DNA of 64,000 bases from a virus. The notes under the pieces were generated by a model. The model did not search any database. It was not told the origin of the DNA and saw only the letters and a program-made list of their open reading frames with translations. The stretch is taken from positions 1-64,000 of IMG/VR virus record IMGVR_UViG_3300042549_008472; one strand, 5' to 3'. Positions within the stretch are counted from its first letter, which is position 1. Each line of letters begins with the position of its first letter. The position numbers and the translations under genes were made by a program. Of this stretch, positions 5,023-55,934 are shown one piece after another.

Positions 5023-5584
5023 AAGAAAAGAAGATTCTCCTCGTTTTGAAAGAGGAAAGTACACCCCTTCTTGGCGAAAAATGCCAGATAAGAAAAAAAA
5101 GAAAAAGCAATGGAAGTGCGATATACCTCACGAATATGTAGACGAAGAAAACTATTTTAGATGTATAGAATTACTTTCAGAAAGAGCTTATCAATACTAC
5201 AAAGACCATTCAAAGGCAGATAAAAAATACTCCATTCACGCATTTTATAGAGTGATAAAATTTGTATTTAAAAGGATGAAACACTACCTCACAAGAAATG
5301 AAACAGGTATTTTCATTAAAAATTTTGGGTACTTTTTTATAATGATGTATCCAAAACGCCGAGTAACAAAGTATATGGCAATGAGAATTAAAAACAAAGG
5401 ACACTCCTTTGAACCAATGTTTCTCCCCATAAGAAAAGATGTTGCTTTGAGAACTTGGACAATGAGAAAAAGCTTTTTCAGAAGTGGTTCTTTAGGATGG
5501 TATCTCTACTCAGGTAAAAAATATAGAATGGCTTACACTTACTTAAACACCCTATACGGATTTAAAAAACAAAACACACCATGA
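5015..5584 (+). CDS. Basic IHF/HU-like DNA-binding protein
   Basis: Very basic; GIFIKNFGYFFI strand motif; crAss-like position between ring genes. Confidence 0.5.
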   Translation: MTRRKEDSPRFERGKYTPSWRKMPDKKKKKKQWKCDIPHEYVDEENYFRCIELLSERAYQYYKDHSKADKKYSIHAFYRVIKFVFKRMKHYLTRNETGIFIKNFGYFFIMMYPKRRVTKYMAMRIKNKGHSFEPMFLPIRKDVALRTWTMRKSFFRSGSLGWYLYSGKKYRMAYTYLNTLYGFKKQNTP

Positions 5585-15542: not shown

Positions 15543-18395
15543 ATGAAAAACAATAAGAAAAAATATAAAAGAGGTGGCGGAATAAACACAACAGGATACA
15601 AAGAAAATACACCAACAGAAAATAACCTGTACAACATAATTCCTAATACTTCTAATATTACGATGAAAGAAGTCGATGATAACATTATGGGAGCTTCCTA
15701 TGATGCAAATGGAAATCTTACGTCTATGAAATTTATGAAACCTGAACAAGATTATCAGTATCCACCTAATACGGAAGCTGTTTATGAAGTACCTCAATAT
15801 CAAGTGGCAGGAGTAGCTGATTGGCAAAACCTTTTTGGAAACTTGCCAAATACACCAAAACCTACTTCTCAAGTAAATGCACAACCACCTGCAAAACAAG
15901 TGTGGAATACATCAACAGGAAAGTATGAAAATGTAAATTCTCAGTCATCGGCGGGAAACACGCCAATAAACTCCCCAGTTATTACTCCAAGCAGTAATTC
16001 GTTAGGAACAGCAAGACCCCAAGTAGAAAGTGGGATAAAGAAGACAACCCCTATGGAAGTAAAAGACCCTATGCAAACTATGCAAGAAAACGCCCTAGCT
16101 ACAACTACACAATTTGAAAATACAAACGCAAATGGGGAGGCTGAACAAGGTTTTCAAAACCCACAAAACAGTAAGTATCAGTTTATAAATCCTTACGCAA
16201 CTGGATTTGATATCCCCAGTGCCGCAGTAATGTTAGGACAAGGTATTGAATCAGGGAATGCTTTTGACATAGGAGTTTCAGGATTAAAATTAGCAACAGG
16301 ACTTGCAAGAAATGTTGTAGGTGGAATGGGTGCAGAAAATCGCCGTCAAAATGTAATGCAAGATGCAACAGAAAGATACAGAGAAAGTTTAACACCTGGT
16401 GAACAATATTATCAAGACGGAGGACAACAAGCTCCACCACCATCACAAGAAGAAATTATGCAAATGGTAGCACAAGCTTTACAGCAAGGAGCGCAACCAG
16501 AAGAAGTGTTACAACAACTTTTATCTATGGGGATTCCACAAGAAGTTGCTACTCAACTAATTCAAGGAGCTATGCAAGGTGGTCAAGAACCACAATACAT
16601 GGAAGAAGGTGGTATTGCAAAAGTTTTAACAGGGGAGTATATACAAGAGCCTCAAGACGTTGAAGATGAGGAAGTTGTTGCAGAAATAGAAGCGGGAGAA
16701 TTTATTTTAAACTCAGAAACAGGTAAAATAACCAAAGCTTTAGGAAAGACACATGAAAGCGGAGGCATAGTAGTAACAGCAGAGCAATTGCCACCAAACT
16801 CCTTAATAATCTCCGACCACTTGAAATTAGGCGACAATGCAAAATACTACAAAGACAACTTTGAATTAGACGTAAAACCAAAAGACACATTTGCAAAAGT
16901 ATTGGATAGCTTTACTAAAAAGTCAGGTTTACAAAAATTAGTTGATGAGCAAGAAGACTACATTAAGTCTTTAGAGAAAGAAACTAAAAAAGAAAAACAA
17001 GATGAAACAGTTCAACTAAATCAAAGATTTTTACAAAGTAAGATTGAGGAAATAGAAAAGAAAAAAGAACCGTTAGAAAAAGTGAGGATGGATTTATTTC
17101 AAGATGTGTTTGAAAAACAAGAGGCGGGAAAGAAAGTTGAAAAAGAACAAATGGAATTTCAAAACGGAGGGATGTACAATGGAGACTTAATAATGGAGTA
17201 TGCCAATAAGTATAATATTTCACCTGACCGAGCAAATCAAATAGTACAAGAATATAGAAACGGTGGAAAAAATATACCCATGTACCAAGACGGTAAAGGC
17301 AGATTTGACGCTTGGTACGCAGATGCCCAAGCAAATGGATATACAGGGGTAAAAGACGTAGGTGCTATACAAACTTGGCTAGCTCAAAACAATCCTCAGT
17401 TGGTAGAGGACTACTTCGTCAAAAATAGACAAGGTATGACAGCTAAACATATTGACATACTTAAACAAAAAAATCCGCAAGCATTTAAAGATTTAGGCAT
17501 AGATATTAACAAAGCTTCTGCTCAACTAACACCTGAAGAAAAGTTCAAACTACAAGACGCTCTGTCACCAACTTTAGATAGAAACTTTTGGTTAGAGGGA
17601 TTTCAAGACCAAAAGAAAGACAGGAGATTTCCTATGCAAGGTGTCACTATATCTGCACCCATGACAGGAACGTATGATAATACTATTAAAGCACCTTTAA
17701 TGCCGTCAAATCCTTATGAAGCACCGTTAGTAGACCCTTACAACCCACCAACAACTACCCCAACAGAGGAAAGAAGAGACCCACGAACAGGAATTTTACT
17801 ATTACCTGACCAAACACCACTCTCTCCTCAAAGTTTAGCACCTGCTCTAAAAATAGACAGAAGATTTGATAGAGTAGAAGCTATGCAAGTAACACCTGAA
17901 GCAAGTATAGCTGAATTAAGACGACAAGAAAAAGCGGCAATAGATTCTTACAGTTCACTCCCTGATTCTCAAAGAGCCGCCGCAATAGCACAAGTTCAGT
18001 CTAACACTCAAGATAAAATTGCTCAAATTTCAGCACAAGTACAAGGACAAAATGTGGCTTCTAAATTACAAGCAGATACAACAAACGCAGGAATTCAAAT
18101 GCAAGAAGAAAATGCGAGAGGAACAGACTTATTAAGTTATGAACAGAGAATACAAACAGCTTCTGACAAAACCTTTCAAGACTTAAACAGATACTACAAT
18201 ACACTACAAAAAAATAACGTAGGTAATTTTAACACAGTTAACAACGTAAACCTTTTAAATGCAATGTATGATAATTACCAGTTTACAGGAAATGGAGTAG
18301 AGCAAGTAGGGGACAATCCTTATTTAAACTACGACAATAATGTAACACCCTCTACCACGACACCAAAAAGAAATCCTAGAAAGAGAAAAAATTAA
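15543..18395 (+). CDS. Putative ejection/cargo protein
   Basis: 950 aa, Q/P-rich; repeated [YFM]xxGG motifs; EIEAGE...HESGGI motif of crAss-like internal proteins. Confidence 0.55.
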   Translation: MKNNKKKYKRGGGINTTGYKENTPTENNLYNIIPNTSNITMKEVDDNIMGASYDANGNLTSMKFMKPEQDYQYPPNTEAVYEVPQYQVAGVADWQNLFGNLPNTPKPTSQVNAQPPAKQVWNTSTGKYENVNSQSSAGNTPINSPVITPSSNSLGTARPQVESGIKKTTPMEVKDPMQTMQENALATTTQFENTNANGEAEQGFQNPQNSKYQFINPYATGFDIPSAAVMLGQGIESGNAFDIGVSGLKLATGLARNVVGGMGAENRRQNVMQDATERYRESLTPGEQYYQDGGQQAPPPSQEEIMQMVAQALQQGAQPEEVLQQLLSMGIPQEVATQLIQGAMQGGQEPQYMEEGGIAKVLTGEYIQEPQDVEDEEVVAEIEAGEFILNSETGKITKALGKTHESGGIVVTAEQLPPNSLIISDHLKLGDNAKYYKDNFELDVKPKDTFAKVLDSFTKKSGLQKLVDEQEDYIKSLEKETKKEKQDETVQLNQRFLQSKIEEIEKKKEPLEKVRMDLFQDVFEKQEAGKKVEKEQMEFQNGGMYNGDLIMEYANKYNISPDRANQIVQEYRNGGKNIPMYQDGKGRFDAWYADAQANGYTGVKDVGAIQTWLAQNNPQLVEDYFVKNRQGMTAKHIDILKQKNPQAFKDLGIDINKASAQLTPEEKFKLQDALSPTLDRNFWLEGFQDQKKDRRFPMQGVTISAPMTGTYDNTIKAPLMPSNPYEAPLVDPYNPPTTTPTEERRDPRTGILLLPDQTPLSPQSLAPALKIDRRFDRVEAMQVTPEASIAELRRQEKAAIDSYSSLPDSQRAAAIAQVQSNTQDKIAQISAQVQGQNVASKLQADTTNAGIQMQEENARGTDLLSYEQRIQTASDKTFQDLNRYYNTLQKNNVGNFNTVNNVNLLNAMYDNYQFTGNGVEQVGDNPYLNYDNNVTPSTTTPKRNPRKRKN

Positions 18396-37023: not shown

Positions 37024-37209
37024 ATGAGATATATTCACTACAAAAACGGAAAAATATATAAAACAATAAAAAATTGTTTTGACGAGGAACGAGTCTTTAT
37101 CCAAGAAAACCAAGAGTGGAAAGAGGGAATAATCTACACAGAAGAAGGTGGAGATAAGTTGTTTGTTAGAAGTTTGGAAGAATTTAATTTGAAATTTAGG
37201 GAGGTATGA
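37024..37209 (+). CDS. DUF1653-like protein
   Basis: YIHYKNGKIY...LFVRSLEEF. Confidence 0.6.
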   Translation: MRYIHYKNGKIYKTIKNCFDEERVFIQENQEWKEGIIYTEEGGDKLFVRSLEEFNLKFREV

Positions 37210-39221
37210 ATTTAGATAATGTGTATGTAGCTGATTGTGAGACAGATGGGCTTTATGAAACTGTATCAAAAATGCACGTTTTTTCTATTGGTTGGAAATC
37301 CGAGGGGCAATGGCAAATAAAGTCAACTAATAAAAAAGAAGATGTAGAAAAAGTACTATGTAACCCTAAGAACGTAATCGTGATGCACAATGGCAGACGC
37401 TACGACAAACCTGTTTTAGAGAAGATTTTTGGCTTTACTGTTACTGCAACTATAATAGACTCTTTAGCATTAGCTTGGTGGTTATACCCAAACCGTTCAA
37501 AAGAGGGTAAAAAATTCGGACTTGCTTATTTTGGTGAAGACTATGGAGTCCCAAAACCTATTCTAGAAGATTGGGAAAATCAGCCCTACGAAGTTTATGT
37601 TAACAGATGTGAAGTTGATACTCGCATTAATATACTGTTATGGGAAGATTTAAAGGCTAAACTAGACTTAATGTATCAAGACAATGAACAAGATAAAATA
37701 AGGCTTATAAACCTTTTAAATTGGGTCATGGACTGTTCTTTTATGCAGGAATTGCAGAAGATAAAAGTTGACGTTAAAAAAACAAAGGAAAACCTTTCTT
37801 ATTTTGAATCCCTAAAAGAGGAGAAAATCCAACAGTTAAAGCAGGCAATGCCTAAAATACCTGTAAAGGTTAAGAGAACAAAGCCAAAAAATATGTTCAA
37901 AAAAGATTTGTCTTTATCTGTTGCAGGTGAGAAATGGATGACCTTGATTAGAGGGTGTAATTTAGAAGAAGATTATGGAGGCGAAATAGAAGAAATTATT
38001 TCATGGGAAGAGCCAAATCCTAACTCTGTAAAGCAAAAAAAAGATTGGTTATATAGTCTTGGATGGAATCCTCAAACATTCAAACACAACAGAGATAAAG
38101 CTACAAATGAAGTAAACATAGTGGAACAAATAATGACTGAAGAAAAAATGCTTTGTCCAAGTGTTTTAAAATTAGTTGAAAAAGAACCTGCTATTGAAGC
38201 TTTTGATGGTCTCACTGTTTTAACACATAGAATTGGACTGCTAAAGGGTTTTCTATCCAATATGGACGAAAATGAGATGATTGCTCAAGGACTGATGGGC
38301 TTAGCCGTTTCAATGAGATGGATGCATTCCAAAATTGTAAACCTTCCGCGTTATACAGGTAAAGGAGATATTAGAGACGGTAAATGGATTAGAGAGTGCC
38401 TTGTAGCGGGAGAAGGAAAGAAGATTGTACAAAGTGACCTTTCTGGAATTGAAAGTCGAACTTCAGACCATTATACGTTTTTTATCAATCCAGATAGAAT
38501 TAAAAAGACACAGATGCCTTATTTTGACCCACATTGCGAAATATCTGTTCAGAGTAATCTAATGACACCTGATGAGGAAGTTTTTTACATTTTTAAATCA
38601 GCAGTAAAAGACAATCCAGAGTTAAATATAGATACATTTAGTGAACTGTATAAACCGACAGAAGAAGTTAAAAGAATGTTGTCATTACCTATTGAGGAAC
38701 AATATAGTTTAATGAAAAAACTAAAAAACGTTAGGACAAAAGGAAAAACTACGAATTATAGCTCACTTTACCTTGTTGGAGCTGAGACACTTAGCAGAGC
38801 TTTAGAGATTACTAAAAAAGAAAGTCAAAAACTTATAGACTCTTATTGGCAAATTCATTACGCAGTCAAAAAAGCAACTGAGTCTTTTGAAACTAAAACA
38901 GTTGGTGATGAAACATGGGTTTATAATCCTATATCAAGATTTTTTTATTATTGTAGAAACACTAAAGACTTATTCAGCATCGTAAACCAGTCTAGTGCAG
39001 TTTACTGTTTCAATATGTGGGTTTGGAATTGTACACAAATGGGTATCTACCCTGTAACACAAAGCCATGACGATTCCGCTTATGTAGTTGATGAGCAATA
39101 TGTTGAAAAAACTAAGTCAATAATTACAGAGGCTATGAGGAGAGTAAATAAACAACTACAGTTAAATGTAGAATTAGCTTGTGAGACTCAGGTAGGAAGT
39201 AATATAGCGGAAACGCATTAG
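37206..39221 (+). CDS. polA: Family A (T7-like) DNA polymerase with 3'-5' exonuclease
   Basis: ExoI DCETDG, ExoII HNGRRYD, motif A DLSGIESR, motif B KTTNYSSLY, motif C SHDD. Confidence 0.92.
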   Translation: MNLDNVYVADCETDGLYETVSKMHVFSIGWKSEGQWQIKSTNKKEDVEKVLCNPKNVIVMHNGRRYDKPVLEKIFGFTVTATIIDSLALAWWLYPNRSKEGKKFGLAYFGEDYGVPKPILEDWENQPYEVYVNRCEVDTRINILLWEDLKAKLDLMYQDNEQDKIRLINLLNWVMDCSFMQELQKIKVDVKKTKENLSYFESLKEEKIQQLKQAMPKIPVKVKRTKPKNMFKKDLSLSVAGEKWMTLIRGCNLEEDYGGEIEEIISWEEPNPNSVKQKKDWLYSLGWNPQTFKHNRDKATNEVNIVEQIMTEEKMLCPSVLKLVEKEPAIEAFDGLTVLTHRIGLLKGFLSNMDENEMIAQGLMGLAVSMRWMHSKIVNLPRYTGKGDIRDGKWIRECLVAGEGKKIVQSDLSGIESRTSDHYTFFINPDRIKKTQMPYFDPHCEISVQSNLMTPDEEVFYIFKSAVKDNPELNIDTFSELYKPTEEVKRMLSLPIEEQYSLMKKLKNVRTKGKTTNYSSLYLVGAETLSRALEITKKESQKLIDSYWQIHYAVKKATESFETKTVGDETWVYNPISRFFYYCRNTKDLFSIVNQSSAVYCFNMWVWNCTQMGIYPVTQSHDDSAYVVDEQYVEKTKSIITEAMRRVNKQLQLNVELACETQVGSNIAETH

Positions 39222-39242
39222 ATGTTAAAGTTTTAACAAAGA

Positions 39243-39274
39243 TTTGCACAGTTAAAAATTATTTTGTAGATTTG
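39243..39274 (+). promoter_or_regulatory. Bacteroidetes promoter of the HNH gene and its leader
   Basis: TTTG-N20-TAGATTTG. Confidence 0.7.
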
Positions 39275-39277
39275 CTT

Positions 39278-39382
39278 TGTAATTATTTTGTGCGAGATTT
39301 GATTACATTTAAAACACTAAAAAATATAATGCTGAAAGTTTGTTTGATGATACTCGCACTATCGGATAACAAACTTTTCGGC
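39278..39382 (+). ncRNA. Candidate kissing-loop RNA leader, copy 1
   Basis: Hairpin TGTAATTA/TGATTACA with GTGCGAG in the loop; second long hairpin with 7-nt loop CTCGCAC. Confidence 0.7.
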
Positions 39383-39398
39383 GTTTATAAGATAAAAT

Positions 39399-40337
39399 AT
39401 GTATAAAATTTGGACTGAATACGAAATTAACTTTTTAATTGAACACTACCCTTATAATGGTGTGAATTATTGTGCTAAAGAGCTAAATAGAAGTTATAGT
39501 TCTATAAGTAGAAAAGCACAGAAACTTCAAATAAATGTAAATGGACAAGTATGTAATATGTTAAAAAAAGAAGGAATTTCAAAATCTAATAAACCTAGAA
39601 GAAAAGATAGAGTAGGTAAAAAATTTATAACTTATCAAGGTTATGAAATTGAGATTATTGAATATTTCGGAGCACGAAATTGTACCATTAGATTTAATGA
39701 TAAAAATAACACTGTTAAATATAACGTAGCGGTAAAAGAAATACAAACAGGAAGTATTAAAAACTGCAATCATCCAGAAGTATTGGGTGTAGGGTATATT
39801 GGGATAGGTGACCATACTGCAAGGGTTGATGGTAAAATGACAAAATGTTATAACACATGGTTCAACATGCTAAGTAGATGTTATCAAAGTACAAATAATA
39901 GAAACTATAGTTATTGTGATGTAGAGGTTTGCGAAGAATGGCATAATTTTCAAAATTTTGCCGAATGGTTTTATGACAATTTTAAGAATAACGGTTGGTT
40001 TTTAGACAAAGATATTCTATGTCCAACTTGTAAAATTTACAGCCCTGAGACTTGCTGTTTTGTACCTAATGAGGTGAATGTACTATTTAGTAAAAATAAT
40101 ATAAGTACGTATAATTTACCAAGGGGAGTCTATCCTAAAGATGGTAAATATGAGTCTGCTATTAGTAAATTTGGTAAACAGTATTACTTGGGATTTTTTA
40201 ATACTATCGAAGAAGCACAACATACTTACAATACAGCTAAAAAAGAGTATATACAAGAAGTCAGTGATAAGTGGAGAGGTATATTAGCCGATAACATCTG
40301 TAATGCCATAAGAGATTTTGATATTAGTTTACTATAA
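39399..40337 (+). CDS. Free-standing HNH-type homing endonuclease with N-terminal HTH and C-terminal AP2-like domain
   Basis: YNTWFNMLSRCY, VCEEWHNFQNFAEWF, LDKDIL, YSPETCCFVP, LPRGV...YLGFFNTIEEA. Confidence 0.85.
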   Translation: MYKIWTEYEINFLIEHYPYNGVNYCAKELNRSYSSISRKAQKLQINVNGQVCNMLKKEGISKSNKPRRKDRVGKKFITYQGYEIEIIEYFGARNCTIRFNDKNNTVKYNVAVKEIQTGSIKNCNHPEVLGVGYIGIGDHTARVDGKMTKCYNTWFNMLSRCYQSTNNRNYSYCDVEVCEEWHNFQNFAEWFYDNFKNNGWFLDKDILCPTCKIYSPETCCFVPNEVNVLFSKNNISTYNLPRGVYPKDGKYESAISKFGKQYYLGFFNTIEEAQHTYNTAKKEYIQEVSDKWRGILADNICNAIRDFDISLL

Positions 40338-50639: not shown

Positions 50640-51404
50640 TTAATCTGTTATTTCTACTTGGTAAGCACACATTGCTTGGTAAACTTCATCTAAAATTAGG
50701 GATTTCCATTTATTAGCAATTTCTTTTATGTATATTTCTTTTGCTTCTTTGTACGCTTGAAACGCTTCTTCTATAGTTTTATACAATCCTAAATATTTCT
50801 GAATACCATTTCCTATTTTTAAATAAGCTTTATATTTATTACCTTCTTTTACTACTCCTATTGGACAACTACCCCTATTAATATTGTTTTTAATAAAAAG
50901 TGTATTGATTTCTTGTGGTACAAAGCAACAAGCTTCAGGTGAATAAACTTTGTTACCCTTGATTAAAATGTCCTTATCTAATTGCCAACCATCAATATAG
51001 TTATTTTCAAACCATTGTGCAAAGTTTTGAAAGTTGTGCCACTCTTCTACTACGCTACATCCCTTATAAGTGGGTTGTTTTTCTTGTGTTTTTTCACTAT
51101 AACATCTTAACAAAAGATTATACCATGTTCTATATTGCTTGTTAGTATTACCTTTATCTGAGGAAATATGGTCACCGTAACCAAAATATCCAACACCAAA
51201 AATTTCTTTATGGTAAGGGTTTTTAACACTCCCCCTTTTTAGATTAGATAGTCTAACTTTCATAATAAAACTATTCTCAAATTTTATATAAACATTATTT
51301 TTATCTACATACTCAACTATAGTTACTTTATAATCTTGCTTAGTTATAAAGACCATATTAGTGTAAAAATTACTATTTAATTCTTGTCTTTCTTTATTTG
51401 TCAT
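50640..51404 (-). CDS. HNH-type homing endonuclease (AP2-like C-terminus), paralogue of 39399..40337
   Basis: YRTWYNLLLRCY, EEWHNFQNFAQWF, LDKDIL, YSPEACCFVP. Confidence 0.85.
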   Translation of the reverse strand: MTNKERQELNSNFYTNMVFITKQDYKVTIVEYVDKNNVYIKFENSFIMKVRLSNLKRGSVKNPYHKEIFGVGYFGYGDHISSDKGNTNKQYRTWYNLLLRCYSEKTQEKQPTYKGCSVVEEWHNFQNFAQWFENNYIDGWQLDKDILIKGNKVYSPEACCFVPQEINTLFIKNNINRGSCPIGVVKEGNKYKAYLKIGNGIQKYLGLYKTIEEAFQAYKEAKEIYIKEIANKWKSLILDEVYQAMCAYQVEITD

Positions 51405-55152: not shown

Positions 55153-55764
55153 TTATACCGAATCCCATCCAACTCCATAACATATTTTATCAAAACCAGC
55201 TCTGCCAACTTTATCGGAGAATAATTTATATAGATTATCATTATTTTTACCTTTTTTATAATTAGCTCGTATATATCTTACATCTTCATTGGTAAGGTTG
55301 GTGTTGGAATGTTGTTCTCCTTTTACTTTTTTAACGTTATCAAAACAGCCATTTATGTAAGCATGTAATCCATTTTCAGACTTAGTGCACCATTCTATAT
55401 TAGAAATTCTGTTATCCCATTTCTTAAGGTTTAGATGATTTACAATTGGTAGGTTTTCAGGATTATTCACAAAGTGCTCAGCTACAACTCTATGCCCTAA
55501 AAAATTAAATCTTACACTATCTACATACAATATTAATTGCACATAACCATTTGAATAATAGTTGTTTTTTAAAATCTTACTTTTGGTGAATTGCTTTATA
55601 CCATTACTTCTAGTTAATAATCTATCTTTATTTCTAAATCTACCTAAACTACTCACTTCATAATAATCTTCAAAACCTTTAATAGGTAGCCAAATTTCAC
55701 TTTCTAATTCTTCTTTAGTAAACTCAATTACCATTTTTCTTAACTCTTGCGTTGTTTGTTTCAT
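55153..55764 (-). CDS. NUMOD4-HNH homing endonuclease
   Basis: EIWLPIKGFEDYYEVSSLGR; HRVVAEHF...VNH...DNRISNIEWCTKSEN; start moved to ATG 55764. Confidence 0.88.
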   Translation of the reverse strand: MKQTTQELRKMVIEFTKEELESEIWLPIKGFEDYYEVSSLGRFRNKDRLLTRSNGIKQFTKSKILKNNYYSNGYVQLILYVDSVRFNFLGHRVVAEHFVNNPENLPIVNHLNLKKWDNRISNIEWCTKSENGLHAYINGCFDNVKKVKGEQHSNTNLTNEDVRYIRANYKKGKNNDNLYKLFSDKVGRAGFDKICYGVGWDSV

Positions 55765-55784: not shown

Positions 55785-55874
55785 CCCGCAAACAAAAACT
55801 AGGTAGGATAGTCTTCGTAAGCGGGGGTAATAAAAATTCTTTAAAGGTAATTAAGCATCCTACCGAGTAATTAC
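55785..55874 (-). ncRNA. Candidate kissing-loop RNA leader, copy 2
   Basis: Hairpin GTAATTA/TAATTAC with GGTAGGA in the loop; second long hairpin with 7-nt loop TCCTACC. Confidence 0.7.
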
Positions 55875-55880
55875 TGAGTG

Positions 55881-55912
55881 TAAATATACACCTTTAACTC
55901 TACACTTCCAAA
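55881..55912 (-). promoter_or_regulatory. Bacteroidetes-type promoter (variant -7 element)
   Basis: TTTG-N20-TATATTTA. Confidence 0.55.
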
Positions 55913-55934
55913 TGAGTGTTAAAATTTTAACTTT

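What the first reader, a model, noticed from the sequence alone, without database searches (positions are those of the whole stretch)
39243..40337. Kissing-loop RNA leader cassette in front of an HNH-AP2 endonuclease (copy 1)
Seen: the promoter (39243-39274) is followed at once by hairpin P1, TGTAATTA(39278-85)/TGATTACA(39300-07), whose 14-nt loop holds GTGCGAG (39290-96). An A-rich linker leads to a long hairpin P2 (39331-39382) capped by GATA-[CTCGCAC]-TATC, whose 7-nt loop is the exact complement of the P1 loop. The ATG follows 16 nt later. The same architecture recurs before an unrelated HNH gene at 55785-55874 with different loop sequences. Inference: a conserved promoter + structured RNA + nuclease module that I cannot assign to a named family. 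It could be an attenuator or translational switch restraining a toxic nuclease, a small RNA antitoxin, or an RNA cofactor/guide.
Basis: partly seen in the sequence, partly recalled or inferred. Interest (0 to 1): 0.9.

Follow-up and report, generated by a model that had tools for sequence, protein, structure and literature searches.

The report
Kissing-loop leader RNA before homing endonucleases
A lake-water Bacteroidota phage places a portable promoter plus a folded RNA leader of about 105 bases in front of two unrelated selfish DNA-cutting-enzyme genes; the tips of its two hairpins always pair with each other using different letters in each copy, it matches no catalogued RNA family, and it most likely limits how much of the downstream gene is expressed.

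Summary
Copy 1 (39231-39398, + strand) has a Bacteroidota-type promoter, a hairpin P1 at the predicted transcript start and a long hairpin P2. The 7-nt P2 loop (39353-39359) is the exact complement of the P1 loop core (39290-39296). Copy 2 lies on the minus strand (55924-55765) and uses a different loop pair.

I found four more copies in three related phage genomes. Each has its own loop pair, and one carries two G-C to A-U compensatory changes relative to copy 1. Matching loops form 7-8 Watson-Crick pairs; the 56 mismatched combinations form at most 4. On a model-based alignment that knew nothing of the loop pairing, all cells of the kissing helix pair and 5 of 7 pairs change on both sides. 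Rfam has no match.

Relatives with no inserted gene after the DNA polymerase lack the leader. It precedes five different endonuclease families and also helix-turn-helix genes, and many homing endonuclease genes lack it. This argues against a nuclease cofactor or antitoxin.

Best reading: a cis-acting attenuator or insulator leader. A terminated leader RNA acting in trans remains possible. No RNA data exist. This scan has noted the same family before on other DNA (at least 47 genomes).

The parts
39231..39274 (+). Copy 1 promoter: upstream element TTTTAACA (39231-38), -33 TTTG (39243-46), -7 box TAGATTTG (39267-74)
   Evidence: Sequence. The element TTTTAACA-N-ATTTG occurs only at the two copies in the window. 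A promoter of the same class without a leader lies at about 65.4 kb of the genome. With the sigma-A box at -12 to -5 (PMC9723704), the predicted +1 is G39279.
39278..39307 (+). Copy 1 hairpin P1: arms 39278-85 and 39300-07, 14-nt loop with kissing core GTGCGAG at 39290-96. It begins at the predicted transcript start.
   Evidence: In a lake-water variant contig the stem changes keep the pairing and no difference is listed in the core.
39308..39330 (+). A/U-rich single-stranded linker between P1 and P2
   Evidence: Unpaired in the MFE and centroid folds.
39331..39382 (+). Copy 1 hairpin P2: long imperfect stem with a 7-nt apical loop CTCGCAC (39353-59) complementary to the P1 core. A weak U-tract (GUUUAU) follows.
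39383..39398 (+). 16-nt A/U-rich spacer between P2 and the start codon
39399..40337 (+). Downstream gene 1: 312-aa homing endonuclease with a C-terminal AP2-like DNA-binding domain
   Evidence: PHROG 953, E = 6e-60; AP2 domain match to 7wq5_A, E = 2e-5; no Pfam hit.
55881..55924 (-). Copy 2 promoter: TTTTAACA (55924-17), -33 TTTG (55912-09), -7 box TATATTTA (55888-81)
55847..55874 (-). Copy 2 hairpin P1: GTAATTA / TAATTAC arms, 14-nt loop with core GGTAGGA (55864-58). It starts at predicted +3.
55785..55825 (-). Copy 2 hairpin P2: CCCGC/GCGGG base plus a 10-bp upper stem, 7-nt loop TCCTACC (55808-02), followed by A-UUUUUAUUUU (terminator-like)
55153..55764 (-). Downstream gene 2: 203-aa NUMOD4 + HNH_3 homing endonuclease
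   Evidence: Pfam PF07463, E = 4e-14, and PF13392, E = 9e-8.

Best explanation
This is a portable, transcribed cis-regulatory leader that travels with inserted genes, mostly homing endonuclease genes, in a group of freshwater T5-like Bacteroidota phages.

A sigma-A-type promoter starts the RNA at the first bases of hairpin P1. After an A/U-rich linker comes the long hairpin P2, which in most copies is followed by a U-tract, as in an intrinsic terminator. P2 ends 14-22 nt before the start codon. The P1 loop and the P2 loop form a 7-8 bp Watson-Crick kissing helix that locks the leader into one compact fold.

Proposed action: the folded leader stops or slows most transcripts, both from its own promoter and from the upstream gene, before they reach the nuclease gene. 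Only a small, insulated dose of the gene is then expressed.

What the sequence shows: the promoter motifs, the hairpins, the loop complementarity and its covariation, the strand, the association with inserted genes, and modularity across gene families.

What is inferred: transcription from this promoter, termination at P2, the direction of the effect on expression, and whether the kissing helix helps or hinders termination.
For: 1. Fold. P1 and P2 are predicted in both copies, with z-scores of -3.4 and -4.5. In all nine leaders examined the sense strand folds 6-12 kcal/mol better than the antisense strand. G-U pairs are frequent in the stems. Both points indicate RNA rather than DNA.

2. Homologues with new loop pairs.
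- G001, after the DNA polymerase: ACGCAAC/GTTGCGT, before a LAGLIDADG gene. Model R1 finds it at E = 1e-5.
- G002: ATACGAG/CTCGTAT, before an HNH-AP2 gene 49% identical to gene 1. Model R2 finds it at E = 8e-4. Relative to copy 1 this is two G-C to A-U double changes.
- G002, a second copy: GTAGTGC/GCACTAC.
- G005: AGTCTCA/TGAGACT, before a DUF723 endonuclease.

3. Pair counts on the model alignment A9. The covariance model holds no pseudoknot, yet the kissing helix is 100% paired and 5 of 7 pairs change on both sides. The whole structure is 93.8% paired against 78% in shuffles (0 of 500 reach it) and about 40-48% when partners are slid.

4. Specificity. Cognate loops give 7-8 pairs at about -10.7 kcal/mol. 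The 56 non-cognate combinations give at most 4 pairs, mean -2.3.

5. Genome-wide control. In the six related genomes (708 kb) the energy-filtered scan finds 5 hits with P2 at or below -20 kcal/mol, against 0/0/0 for reversed, complemented or direct-repeat controls. In 1 Mb of unrelated viral contigs there is no enrichment.

6. Terminator-like tail. U-runs follow P2 in copy 2, the first G002 copy, G005 and both L107 copies.

7. Link to insertion. Relatives whose polymerase gene is followed directly by the next resident gene have no leader (L154, L157, L158). Three relatives with three different endonucleases at that site do have it.

8. Precedent. T-even phage homing endonuclease genes are held down by terminators and RNA hairpins (review PMC2988022).
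Against: - There is no RNA evidence. The transcript start, termination and any effect on expression are untested.
- Copy 1 and the G001 copy have only a 3-4 U tail after P2, and the simple terminator scan reports nothing at either copy. P2 of copy 1 may therefore terminate poorly.
- Loop-loop pairing does not compete with the P2 stem, so the classical alternative-structure logic of attenuators is absent. It is unclear what the kissing helix adds.
- Many endonuclease genes in the same phages do without the leader. It is not needed to tolerate a nuclease gene.
- A 5'-terminal hairpin plus a compact fold could equally stabilise the mRNA and raise expression.
Confidence: 0.5

Rival explanations
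1. The functional product is a discrete small RNA of about 105 nt (promoter to P2 terminator). It acts in trans on nascent or read-through transcripts of its own cassette through the same loop pairs. This would be a sense-encoded, self-addressed regulator like IsrK of Gifsy-1 or the CI RNA of P4.
For: - The anatomy is that of a small RNA gene: a promoter, a hairpin at +1, an A/U-rich linker and a terminator-like hairpin with a U-run.
- The loops diverge faster than their surroundings. Copies 1 and 2 share about 70-100% identity in the promoter and P1 stem but only 6 of 14 loop positions.
- The two copies in one genome are orthogonal, with at most 3 pairs in cross combinations. That is expected if cross-talk between molecules must be avoided.
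- Precedents exist for regulator and target sharing one transcript (PMC4825925).
Against: - No RNA data exist.
- Intramolecular pairing is kinetically favoured over pairing in trans.
- Neither core has an extended complementary match anywhere else in the genome; only scattered chance-level 7-mer copies occur.
- Loop divergence with compensation also follows from drift or from module shuffling.
Confidence: 0.2
2. The leader is an mRNA-stabilising or translation-enabling element. The 5'-terminal hairpin and the kissing fold would protect the transcript from 5'-end-dependent RNases, so the leader would raise expression of the inserted gene rather than restrain it.
For: - P1 begins at predicted +1 to +3 in five copies. 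From general knowledge, 5'-terminal stem-loops stabilise bacterial mRNAs.
- The 14-22 nt before the start codon are A/U-rich and unpaired, as Bacteroidota translation initiation prefers (PMC9723704).
- The tail after P2 in copy 1 is U-poor.
Against: - Clear U-tracts directly after P2 in most copies indicate termination.
- A simple 5' hairpin would be enough for protection. This reading does not explain the conserved, covarying pairing with the P2 loop.
Confidence: 0.15
3. It is a DNA-level element. The two complementary 7-mers would be an inverted repeat bound by a protein, for example the endonuclease repressing its own gene as I-TevI does, or a recombination or insertion site.
For: - I-TevI binds an operator at its own promoter (PMC2988022).
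- Each nuclease would have its own sequence specificity, which could explain a different 7-mer pair in each copy.
Against: - Both 7-mers always sit in hairpin loops.
- The stems hold many G-U pairs, which would be A-C mismatches on the other strand, and the sense strand folds 6-12 kcal/mol better.
- The half-sites are 56-63 bp apart.
- Leaders also precede non-nuclease genes.
Confidence: 0.05
4. It is an RNA cofactor, guide or antitoxin dedicated to the HNH nuclease. These were the first reader's other options.
For: Only the position next to nuclease genes.
Against: - It sits in front of five unrelated endonuclease families and of helix-turn-helix genes.
- It is absent from most paralogous nuclease genes and from the orthologues of gene 2 in relatives.
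- There is no match to the HEARO/omega RNA or any other Rfam family.
Confidence: 0.03

Closest known systems
Regulatory terminators and RNA hairpins of T-even phage homing endonuclease genes (I-TevI/II/III, segB, mobE, segF, seg43(25); review PMC2988022)
   Same: Both involve selfish nuclease genes in lytic phages with their own promoters and structured RNA, including intrinsic terminators, that hold expression down. The seg43(25) hairpin also sits just upstream of the start site without covering it.
   Different: In T-even phages the hairpin hides the Shine-Dalgarno sequence, and a late promoter inside it yields translatable RNA. The mobE and segF terminators lie inside the coding region. Here the promoter precedes both hairpins, the start region is free, and a covarying loop-loop helix joins two hairpins. 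The review describes no such feature.
IsrK of Gifsy-1 and CI RNA of P4 / C4 RNA of P1-P7: regulator and target encoded on the same strand of one transcript (PMC4825925)
   Same: All have a promoter-proximal small RNA module with a terminator, followed by read-through into downstream genes. The complementary segments lie on the same transcript. Specificity is carried by short loop sequences that covary with their targets.
   Different: No sequence or Rfam relationship was found. Those RNAs target ribosome-binding regions or distant segments and act in lysogeny control. Here the complementarity joins the loop of a 5' hairpin to the loop of the terminator-like hairpin, and any action in trans is unproven.
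Zipper-type transcription attenuator cATT of plasmid pLS20 (PMC13401043)
   Same: Both are leaders in which an upstream stem-loop is complementary to a downstream intrinsic terminator, gating entry into a mobile-element operon.
   Different: In pLS20 the complementarity covers the terminator stem and forms an antiterminator. Here it is confined to the 7-nt loop and does not extend into the stems (checked on the sequence). The two structures therefore coexist rather than compete.
Kissing complexes of antisense-RNA control systems such as ColE1 RNAI/RNAII and plasmid copy-control attenuators (from general knowledge)
   Same: Fully Watson-Crick 7-nt loop-loop helices, with specificity set by the loop sequence and different sequences in compatible systems.
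   Different: Those partners are transcribed from opposite strands and meet in trans. Here both loops are on one sense transcript, 56-63 nt apart.

Membership tests
T-even homing-endonuclease translational-control hairpins | [quoted passage not shown] | tested here: not met
   P2 ends 16 nt (copy 1) and about 20 nt (copy 2) before the ATG, and the spacer is unpaired.
T-even homing-endonuclease translational-control hairpins | A promoter embedded in the hairpin, so that its transcripts lack the inhibitory arm | tested here: not met
   The promoter lies upstream of both hairpins. The predicted +1 (G39279) is the first base of the P1 stem.
Intrinsic-terminator attenuator | A stable hairpin immediately followed by a U-tract, placed between promoter and gene | tested here: inconclusive
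   Met by copy 2 (GCGGG-A-UUUUUAUUUU), the first G002 copy, G005 and both L107 copies. Copy 1 and G001 have only GUUUAU / GUUUUAU. The simple terminator scan reports none, because the stems hold internal loops.
Intrinsic-terminator attenuator | An alternative antiterminator structure, or a factor that switches termination | tested here: not met
   The loop-loop pairing does not overlap the P2 stem, and it extends into the stems in neither copy in any general way (sequence).
P1 C4 / P4 CI antisense RNA (Rfam RF01695 and relatives) | Match to the covariance model | tested here: not met
   There are no Rfam hits at gathering score in the window. Only chance snoRNA hits with E > 0.3 appear in E-value mode.
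P1 C4 / P4 CI antisense RNA (Rfam RF01695 and relatives) | The regulator loop is complementary to a target on the same transcript, with covariation | tested here: met
IsrK-type dual small RNA / mRNA | The short terminated RNA acts in trans on the read-through transcript | not testable with these tools
   No RNA holder is listed for this DNA.
Zipper-type attenuator (pLS20 cATT) | An upstream segment pairs with the terminator stem to form an antiterminator | tested here: not met
   Complementarity is limited to the 7-8 nt of the loops.
Riboswitches with kissing loops (purine, cobalamin, guanidine-II) | Match to the Rfam model or a conserved ligand-binding core | tested here: not met
   No Rfam match. 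There is no conserved sequence core: the loops differ completely between copies.

The most novel reading that the evidence does not exclude
The leader is a self-addressed RNA 'barcode' control. Each cassette would make an abundant terminated leader RNA whose loops recognise only nascent transcripts of the same cassette. This would give copy-specific feedback on read-through: sense-encoded, antisense-like regulation that is portable between mobile genes and kept orthogonal within a genome by rapid, compensated loop turnover.
Probability: 0.15. Interest if true: 0.8.

Novelty: new variant of a known kind. Interest (0 to 1): 0.62.

Why it matters
Homing endonuclease genes must be expressed enough to spread but not enough to harm the phage. 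How they manage this outside the T4 family is little known.

This leader is a compact, modular and strongly covarying RNA element that moves between unrelated nuclease families and some helix-turn-helix genes. It comes from Bacteroidota phages, whose hosts lack Shine-Dalgarno-based control.

If it gates transcription, it would be a regulatory architecture I found in neither Rfam nor the papers I searched: a loop-loop lock between the 5' hairpin and the terminator. It would also supply a natural set of orthogonal RNA-RNA pairs, and a marker for mobile cassettes in uncultured phage genomes.

Tried and rejected
- **Pattern scans of viral contigs.** Only the known G001 copy came back.
- **Loose structure scans.** Any 7-mer in a hairpin loop with its complement in a later hairpin loop is not enriched over reversed, complemented or direct-repeat controls. 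The signal appears only for strong P2 hairpins in the related genomes. Architecture hits in unrelated contigs should therefore be treated one by one. L090 is simply one long hairpin, and L073 has a competing fold.
- **Covariance models.** R1 and R2 find only the copy 1 / G001 / first G002 copy subfamily. Copy 2, G005 and the second G002 copy are too divergent, and the weak extra hits were false.
- **Metagenome scan with the polymerase alignment.** It gave two loci, neither with a leader.
- **Expression data.** No RNA holder is listed. Only DNA contigs from lake water could be laid on the region.
- **Hammerhead-like words in P2 of copy 1 (CUGAAA, UGAUGA).** They are in the wrong arrangement and absent from the other copies.
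- **Leader peptide.** An ATG-started 25-codon frame (39329-39406) crosses P2 of copy 1, but nothing comparable is conserved in the other copies.
- **Resident leader of the gene downstream of the polymerase.** Rejected, because relatives without an insert lack it.

Full report
**1. What is in the window**

The window is the first 64 kb of a 79.5-kb IMG/VR virus record. It comes from lake water and has about 32% G+C. It encodes a family-A DNA polymerase (37206-39221), an ATP-dependent ligase and a T5 A1-like 'DNA transfer' protein. It therefore looks like a T5-like phage of a Bacteroidota host.

- -33 TTTG at 39243-46.
- -7 box TAGATTTG at 39267-74, 20 nt downstream.
- P1 at 39278-39307, with a 14-nt loop holding GTGCGAG (39290-96).
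- An A/U-rich linker.
- P2 at 39331-82, with the 7-nt loop CTCGCAC (39353-59).
- 16 nt of spacer, then the ATG at 39399.

RNAfold predicts exactly these two hairpins (-27.5 kcal/mol, z = -3.4). The opposite strand folds worse.

The second copy is on the minus strand. It has the same upstream element TTTTAACA, a promoter, and P1 with the same stem letters (GTAATTA/TAATTAC) and the same loop length. Its core is GGTAGGA. P2 is closed by CCCGC/GCGGG, has the loop TCCTACC and is followed by a U-run. The ATG is at 55764 (z = -4.5).

The two copies align at about 70% identity from the promoter through P1, but not in the loops or in P2.

The downstream genes are unrelated. One is an AP2-domain endonuclease (PHROG 953, E = 6e-60; AP2 match). 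The other is a NUMOD4-HNH_3 endonuclease.

**2. Is the loop pairing more than chance?**

CTCGCAC occurs once in the genome and GTGCGAG twice, with about one occurrence expected for each. Simulation gives about 1e-3 per copy for at least 7 contiguous Watson-Crick pairs between loops of these sizes.

The stronger argument comes from relatives that were found without using the loop pairing.

*The G001 copy.* A phage with 81% identical polymerase (G001, locus L115) carries a homologous leader at the same place. A model built from copy 1 alone finds it at E = 1e-5. Its loops are ACGCAAC/GTTGCGT, and a LAGLIDADG endonuclease gene follows (Pfam E = 3e-10).

*The first G002 copy.* A phage carrying a 49% identical HNH-AP2 gene (G002, locus L012) has a leader that the two-sequence model finds at E = 8e-4. 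Its loops are ATACGAG/CTCGTAT. That is copy 1 with two G-C pairs changed to A-U on both sides.

*Two more copies from a whole-genome scan.* I scanned six whole related genomes with an energy filter. This turned up two further copies:
- G002, after a tRNA-Gln gene: GTAGTGC/GCACTAC.
- G005, again directly after the polymerase: AGTCTCA/TGAGACT, before a DUF723 zinc-finger endonuclease.

At P2 of -20 kcal/mol or stronger the scan gives 5 hits. Controls that ask for the reversed, complemented or identical 7-mer give 0, 0 and 0. The same scan on 1 Mb of unrelated viral contigs shows no enrichment. Looser versions of the scan are at chance level.

*Pair counts.* In the model-made alignment A9 the two cores fall into the same columns in all three rows, although the model contains no pseudoknot. 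Counting pairs on it gives:
- Kissing helix: 100% paired, with 5 of 7 pairs changed on both sides.
- Whole structure: 93.8% paired, against 78% in shuffles (0 of 500 reach it) and about 40-48% when partners are slid.

With only three sequences this is a description rather than a statistic.

*Specificity.* Cognate loops give 7-8 pairs at about -10.7 kcal/mol. The 56 non-cognate combinations give at most 4 pairs, mean -2.3.

**3. RNA or DNA, and which strand?**

In all nine leaders the sense strand folds 6-12 kcal/mol better than the antisense strand. The stems contain many G-U pairs. This indicates an RNA read in the direction of the downstream gene.

In Flavobacterium the sigma-A box TAnnTTTG lies at -12 to -5 (PMC9723704). 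That places +1 at G39279, the first base of the GTAATTA stem. By the same rule P1 starts at +1 to +3 in copy 2, the G001 copy, the first G002 copy and L073. P1 is therefore predicted to be a 5'-terminal hairpin.

**4. What the leader travels with**

At the 3' end of the polymerase gene:
- Relatives without an inserted gene have no leader (L154, L157, L158).
- Three relatives with three different endonucleases have one (G000, G001, G005).
- One close relative has an HNH gene there without a leader (L279).

The orthologues of gene 2 in other phages lack the leader. So do most other endonuclease paralogues in these genomes, including a second HNH-AP2 gene in this window at 50649-51404.

The leader also precedes a phage helix-turn-helix protein in G002.

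An analogous pair of leaders sits before an HNH gene and a helix-turn-helix gene in an unrelated contig that reads TGA as Trp (L107). These have sigma-70-type promoters, P1 at +1, and P2 with a strong U-run.

The leader is thus a module that accompanies some inserted genes. It is not a partner of one nuclease family. That argues against a cofactor, guide or antitoxin.

**5. How it most likely works**

P2 stands between the promoter and the start codon. In most copies a U-tract follows it directly, which is the anatomy of a transcription attenuator.

My best reading (about 0.5) is that the leader stops most transcripts before the nuclease gene and insulates that gene from read-through out of the polymerase gene. 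The kissing helix would hold the weak apical part of P2 and the 5' hairpin in one fold.

Open points:
- Copy 1 and the G001 copy have only 3-4 U after P2.
- The simple terminator scan finds nothing at either copy.
- Loop-loop pairing does not compete with the terminator stem, so there is no obvious switch.

Two rivals stay alive.
- **Small RNA acting in trans.** The terminated RNA of about 105 nt may act on its own cassette, as IsrK or P4 CI RNA do (PMC4825925). In favour, the loops diverge faster than the flanking stem and promoter, and the two copies in this genome are orthogonal.
- **Stabilising fold.** The fold may protect the mRNA and raise expression instead.

A DNA-level operator and a nuclease cofactor are unlikely, for the reasons given in sections 3 and 4.

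**6. Comparison with what is known**

Rfam 15 has no match. A full-text search for kissing loops with homing endonucleases in phages found nothing relevant.

- **T-even phage regulation (closest).** Promoter choice, intrinsic terminators in mobE and segF, and hairpins that hide the ribosome-binding site (PMC2988022). The defining features of those hairpins are not met here.
- **pLS20 zipper attenuator (PMC13401043).** It shares complementarity between an upstream segment and the terminator. There, however, the terminator stem is involved and an antiterminator forms.

I file the element as a new variant of a known kind: a structured leader or attenuator of mobile-gene expression.

**7. Earlier notes of this scan**

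The scan's own notes describe the same kind of leader in at least 47 other genomes. These are unchecked AI notes. They agree with what I tested here, and they led me to the pLS20 paper and the C4/CI comparison.

**8. Population data**

Only DNA contigs from lake-water metagenomes hold the region. One variant contig has 21 differences between 39242 and 39361. None of the 11 differences listed lies in the GTGCGAG core. Its changes in the P1 stem turn a G-U pair into A-U and an A-U pair into G-U. The P2 part of that contig could not be judged. The promoter segment alone also occurs in other sequence contexts in these lakes.

Noticed in passing
window 39219-39245; L115:12017-12045; L143 ~16305-16480; L279 ~2313-2340; L158 ~5508-5560: The 3' end of the DNA polymerase gene is an insertion hot spot. 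Relatives carry an HNH-AP2, a LAGLIDADG, a DUF723-type or a NUMOD4-like HNH endonuclease gene there, or nothing. The bases right after the stop codon (TGTTAAA) are shared by G000, G001 and L158.
   Followed up: partly
window 50649-51404 (-): A second HNH-AP2 paralogue (44% identical to the gene at 39399) has no kissing-loop leader. Its start follows the upstream sequence without a recognisable hairpin pair.
   Followed up: partly
L107:2140-2293 and L107:4735-4889: A very AT-rich viral contig (24% G+C) that reads TGA as Trp carries two paralogous leaders of the same design. Each has a sigma-70-type promoter, P1 at +1, and a terminator P2 with a strong U-run. The loop pairs are CTCCGAC/GTCGGAG and TCGGACA/TGTCCGA, before an HNH gene and a helix-turn-helix gene. 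The design may be convergent or very widespread.
   Followed up: partly
L079:3268-3320: Before a NUMOD4-HNH gene of another phage, the loop of a first hairpin (CTCCAAT) is complementary to the loop of a second hairpin that contains the Shine-Dalgarno GGAGG. This would be a loop-loop version of ribosome-binding-site masking.
   Followed up: no
G000 about 65400-65480 (-), beyond the window's end: The same promoter class (TTTTAACA, TTGCACAGTTAAAAA, TATATTTG) occurs after a canonical terminator and directly before a gene, without P1 or P2. The cassette promoter is thus an ordinary promoter type of this phage.
   Followed up: partly
window 39329-39406: An ATG-started 25-codon frame crosses P2 of copy 1 and ends 5 nt after the endonuclease start codon (ATGTATAA overlap). 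It is not conserved in the other copies.
   Followed up: partly
window 39287-39290; 55867-55864 (-); L115 P1 loop: In copy 1, copy 2, the G001 copy and roughly in G005, the kissing core is preceded by a YUNR-like word (UUUG, CUCG, UUUA). Such words form U-turns in fast-pairing antisense RNA loops. The word is absent from the other copies, so this is only a hint.
   Followed up: no
window 39231-39284: In lake-water metagenome contigs the promoter segment alone occurs with unrelated sequence on both sides. This suggests that the promoter is shared among co-occurring phages.
   Followed up: no
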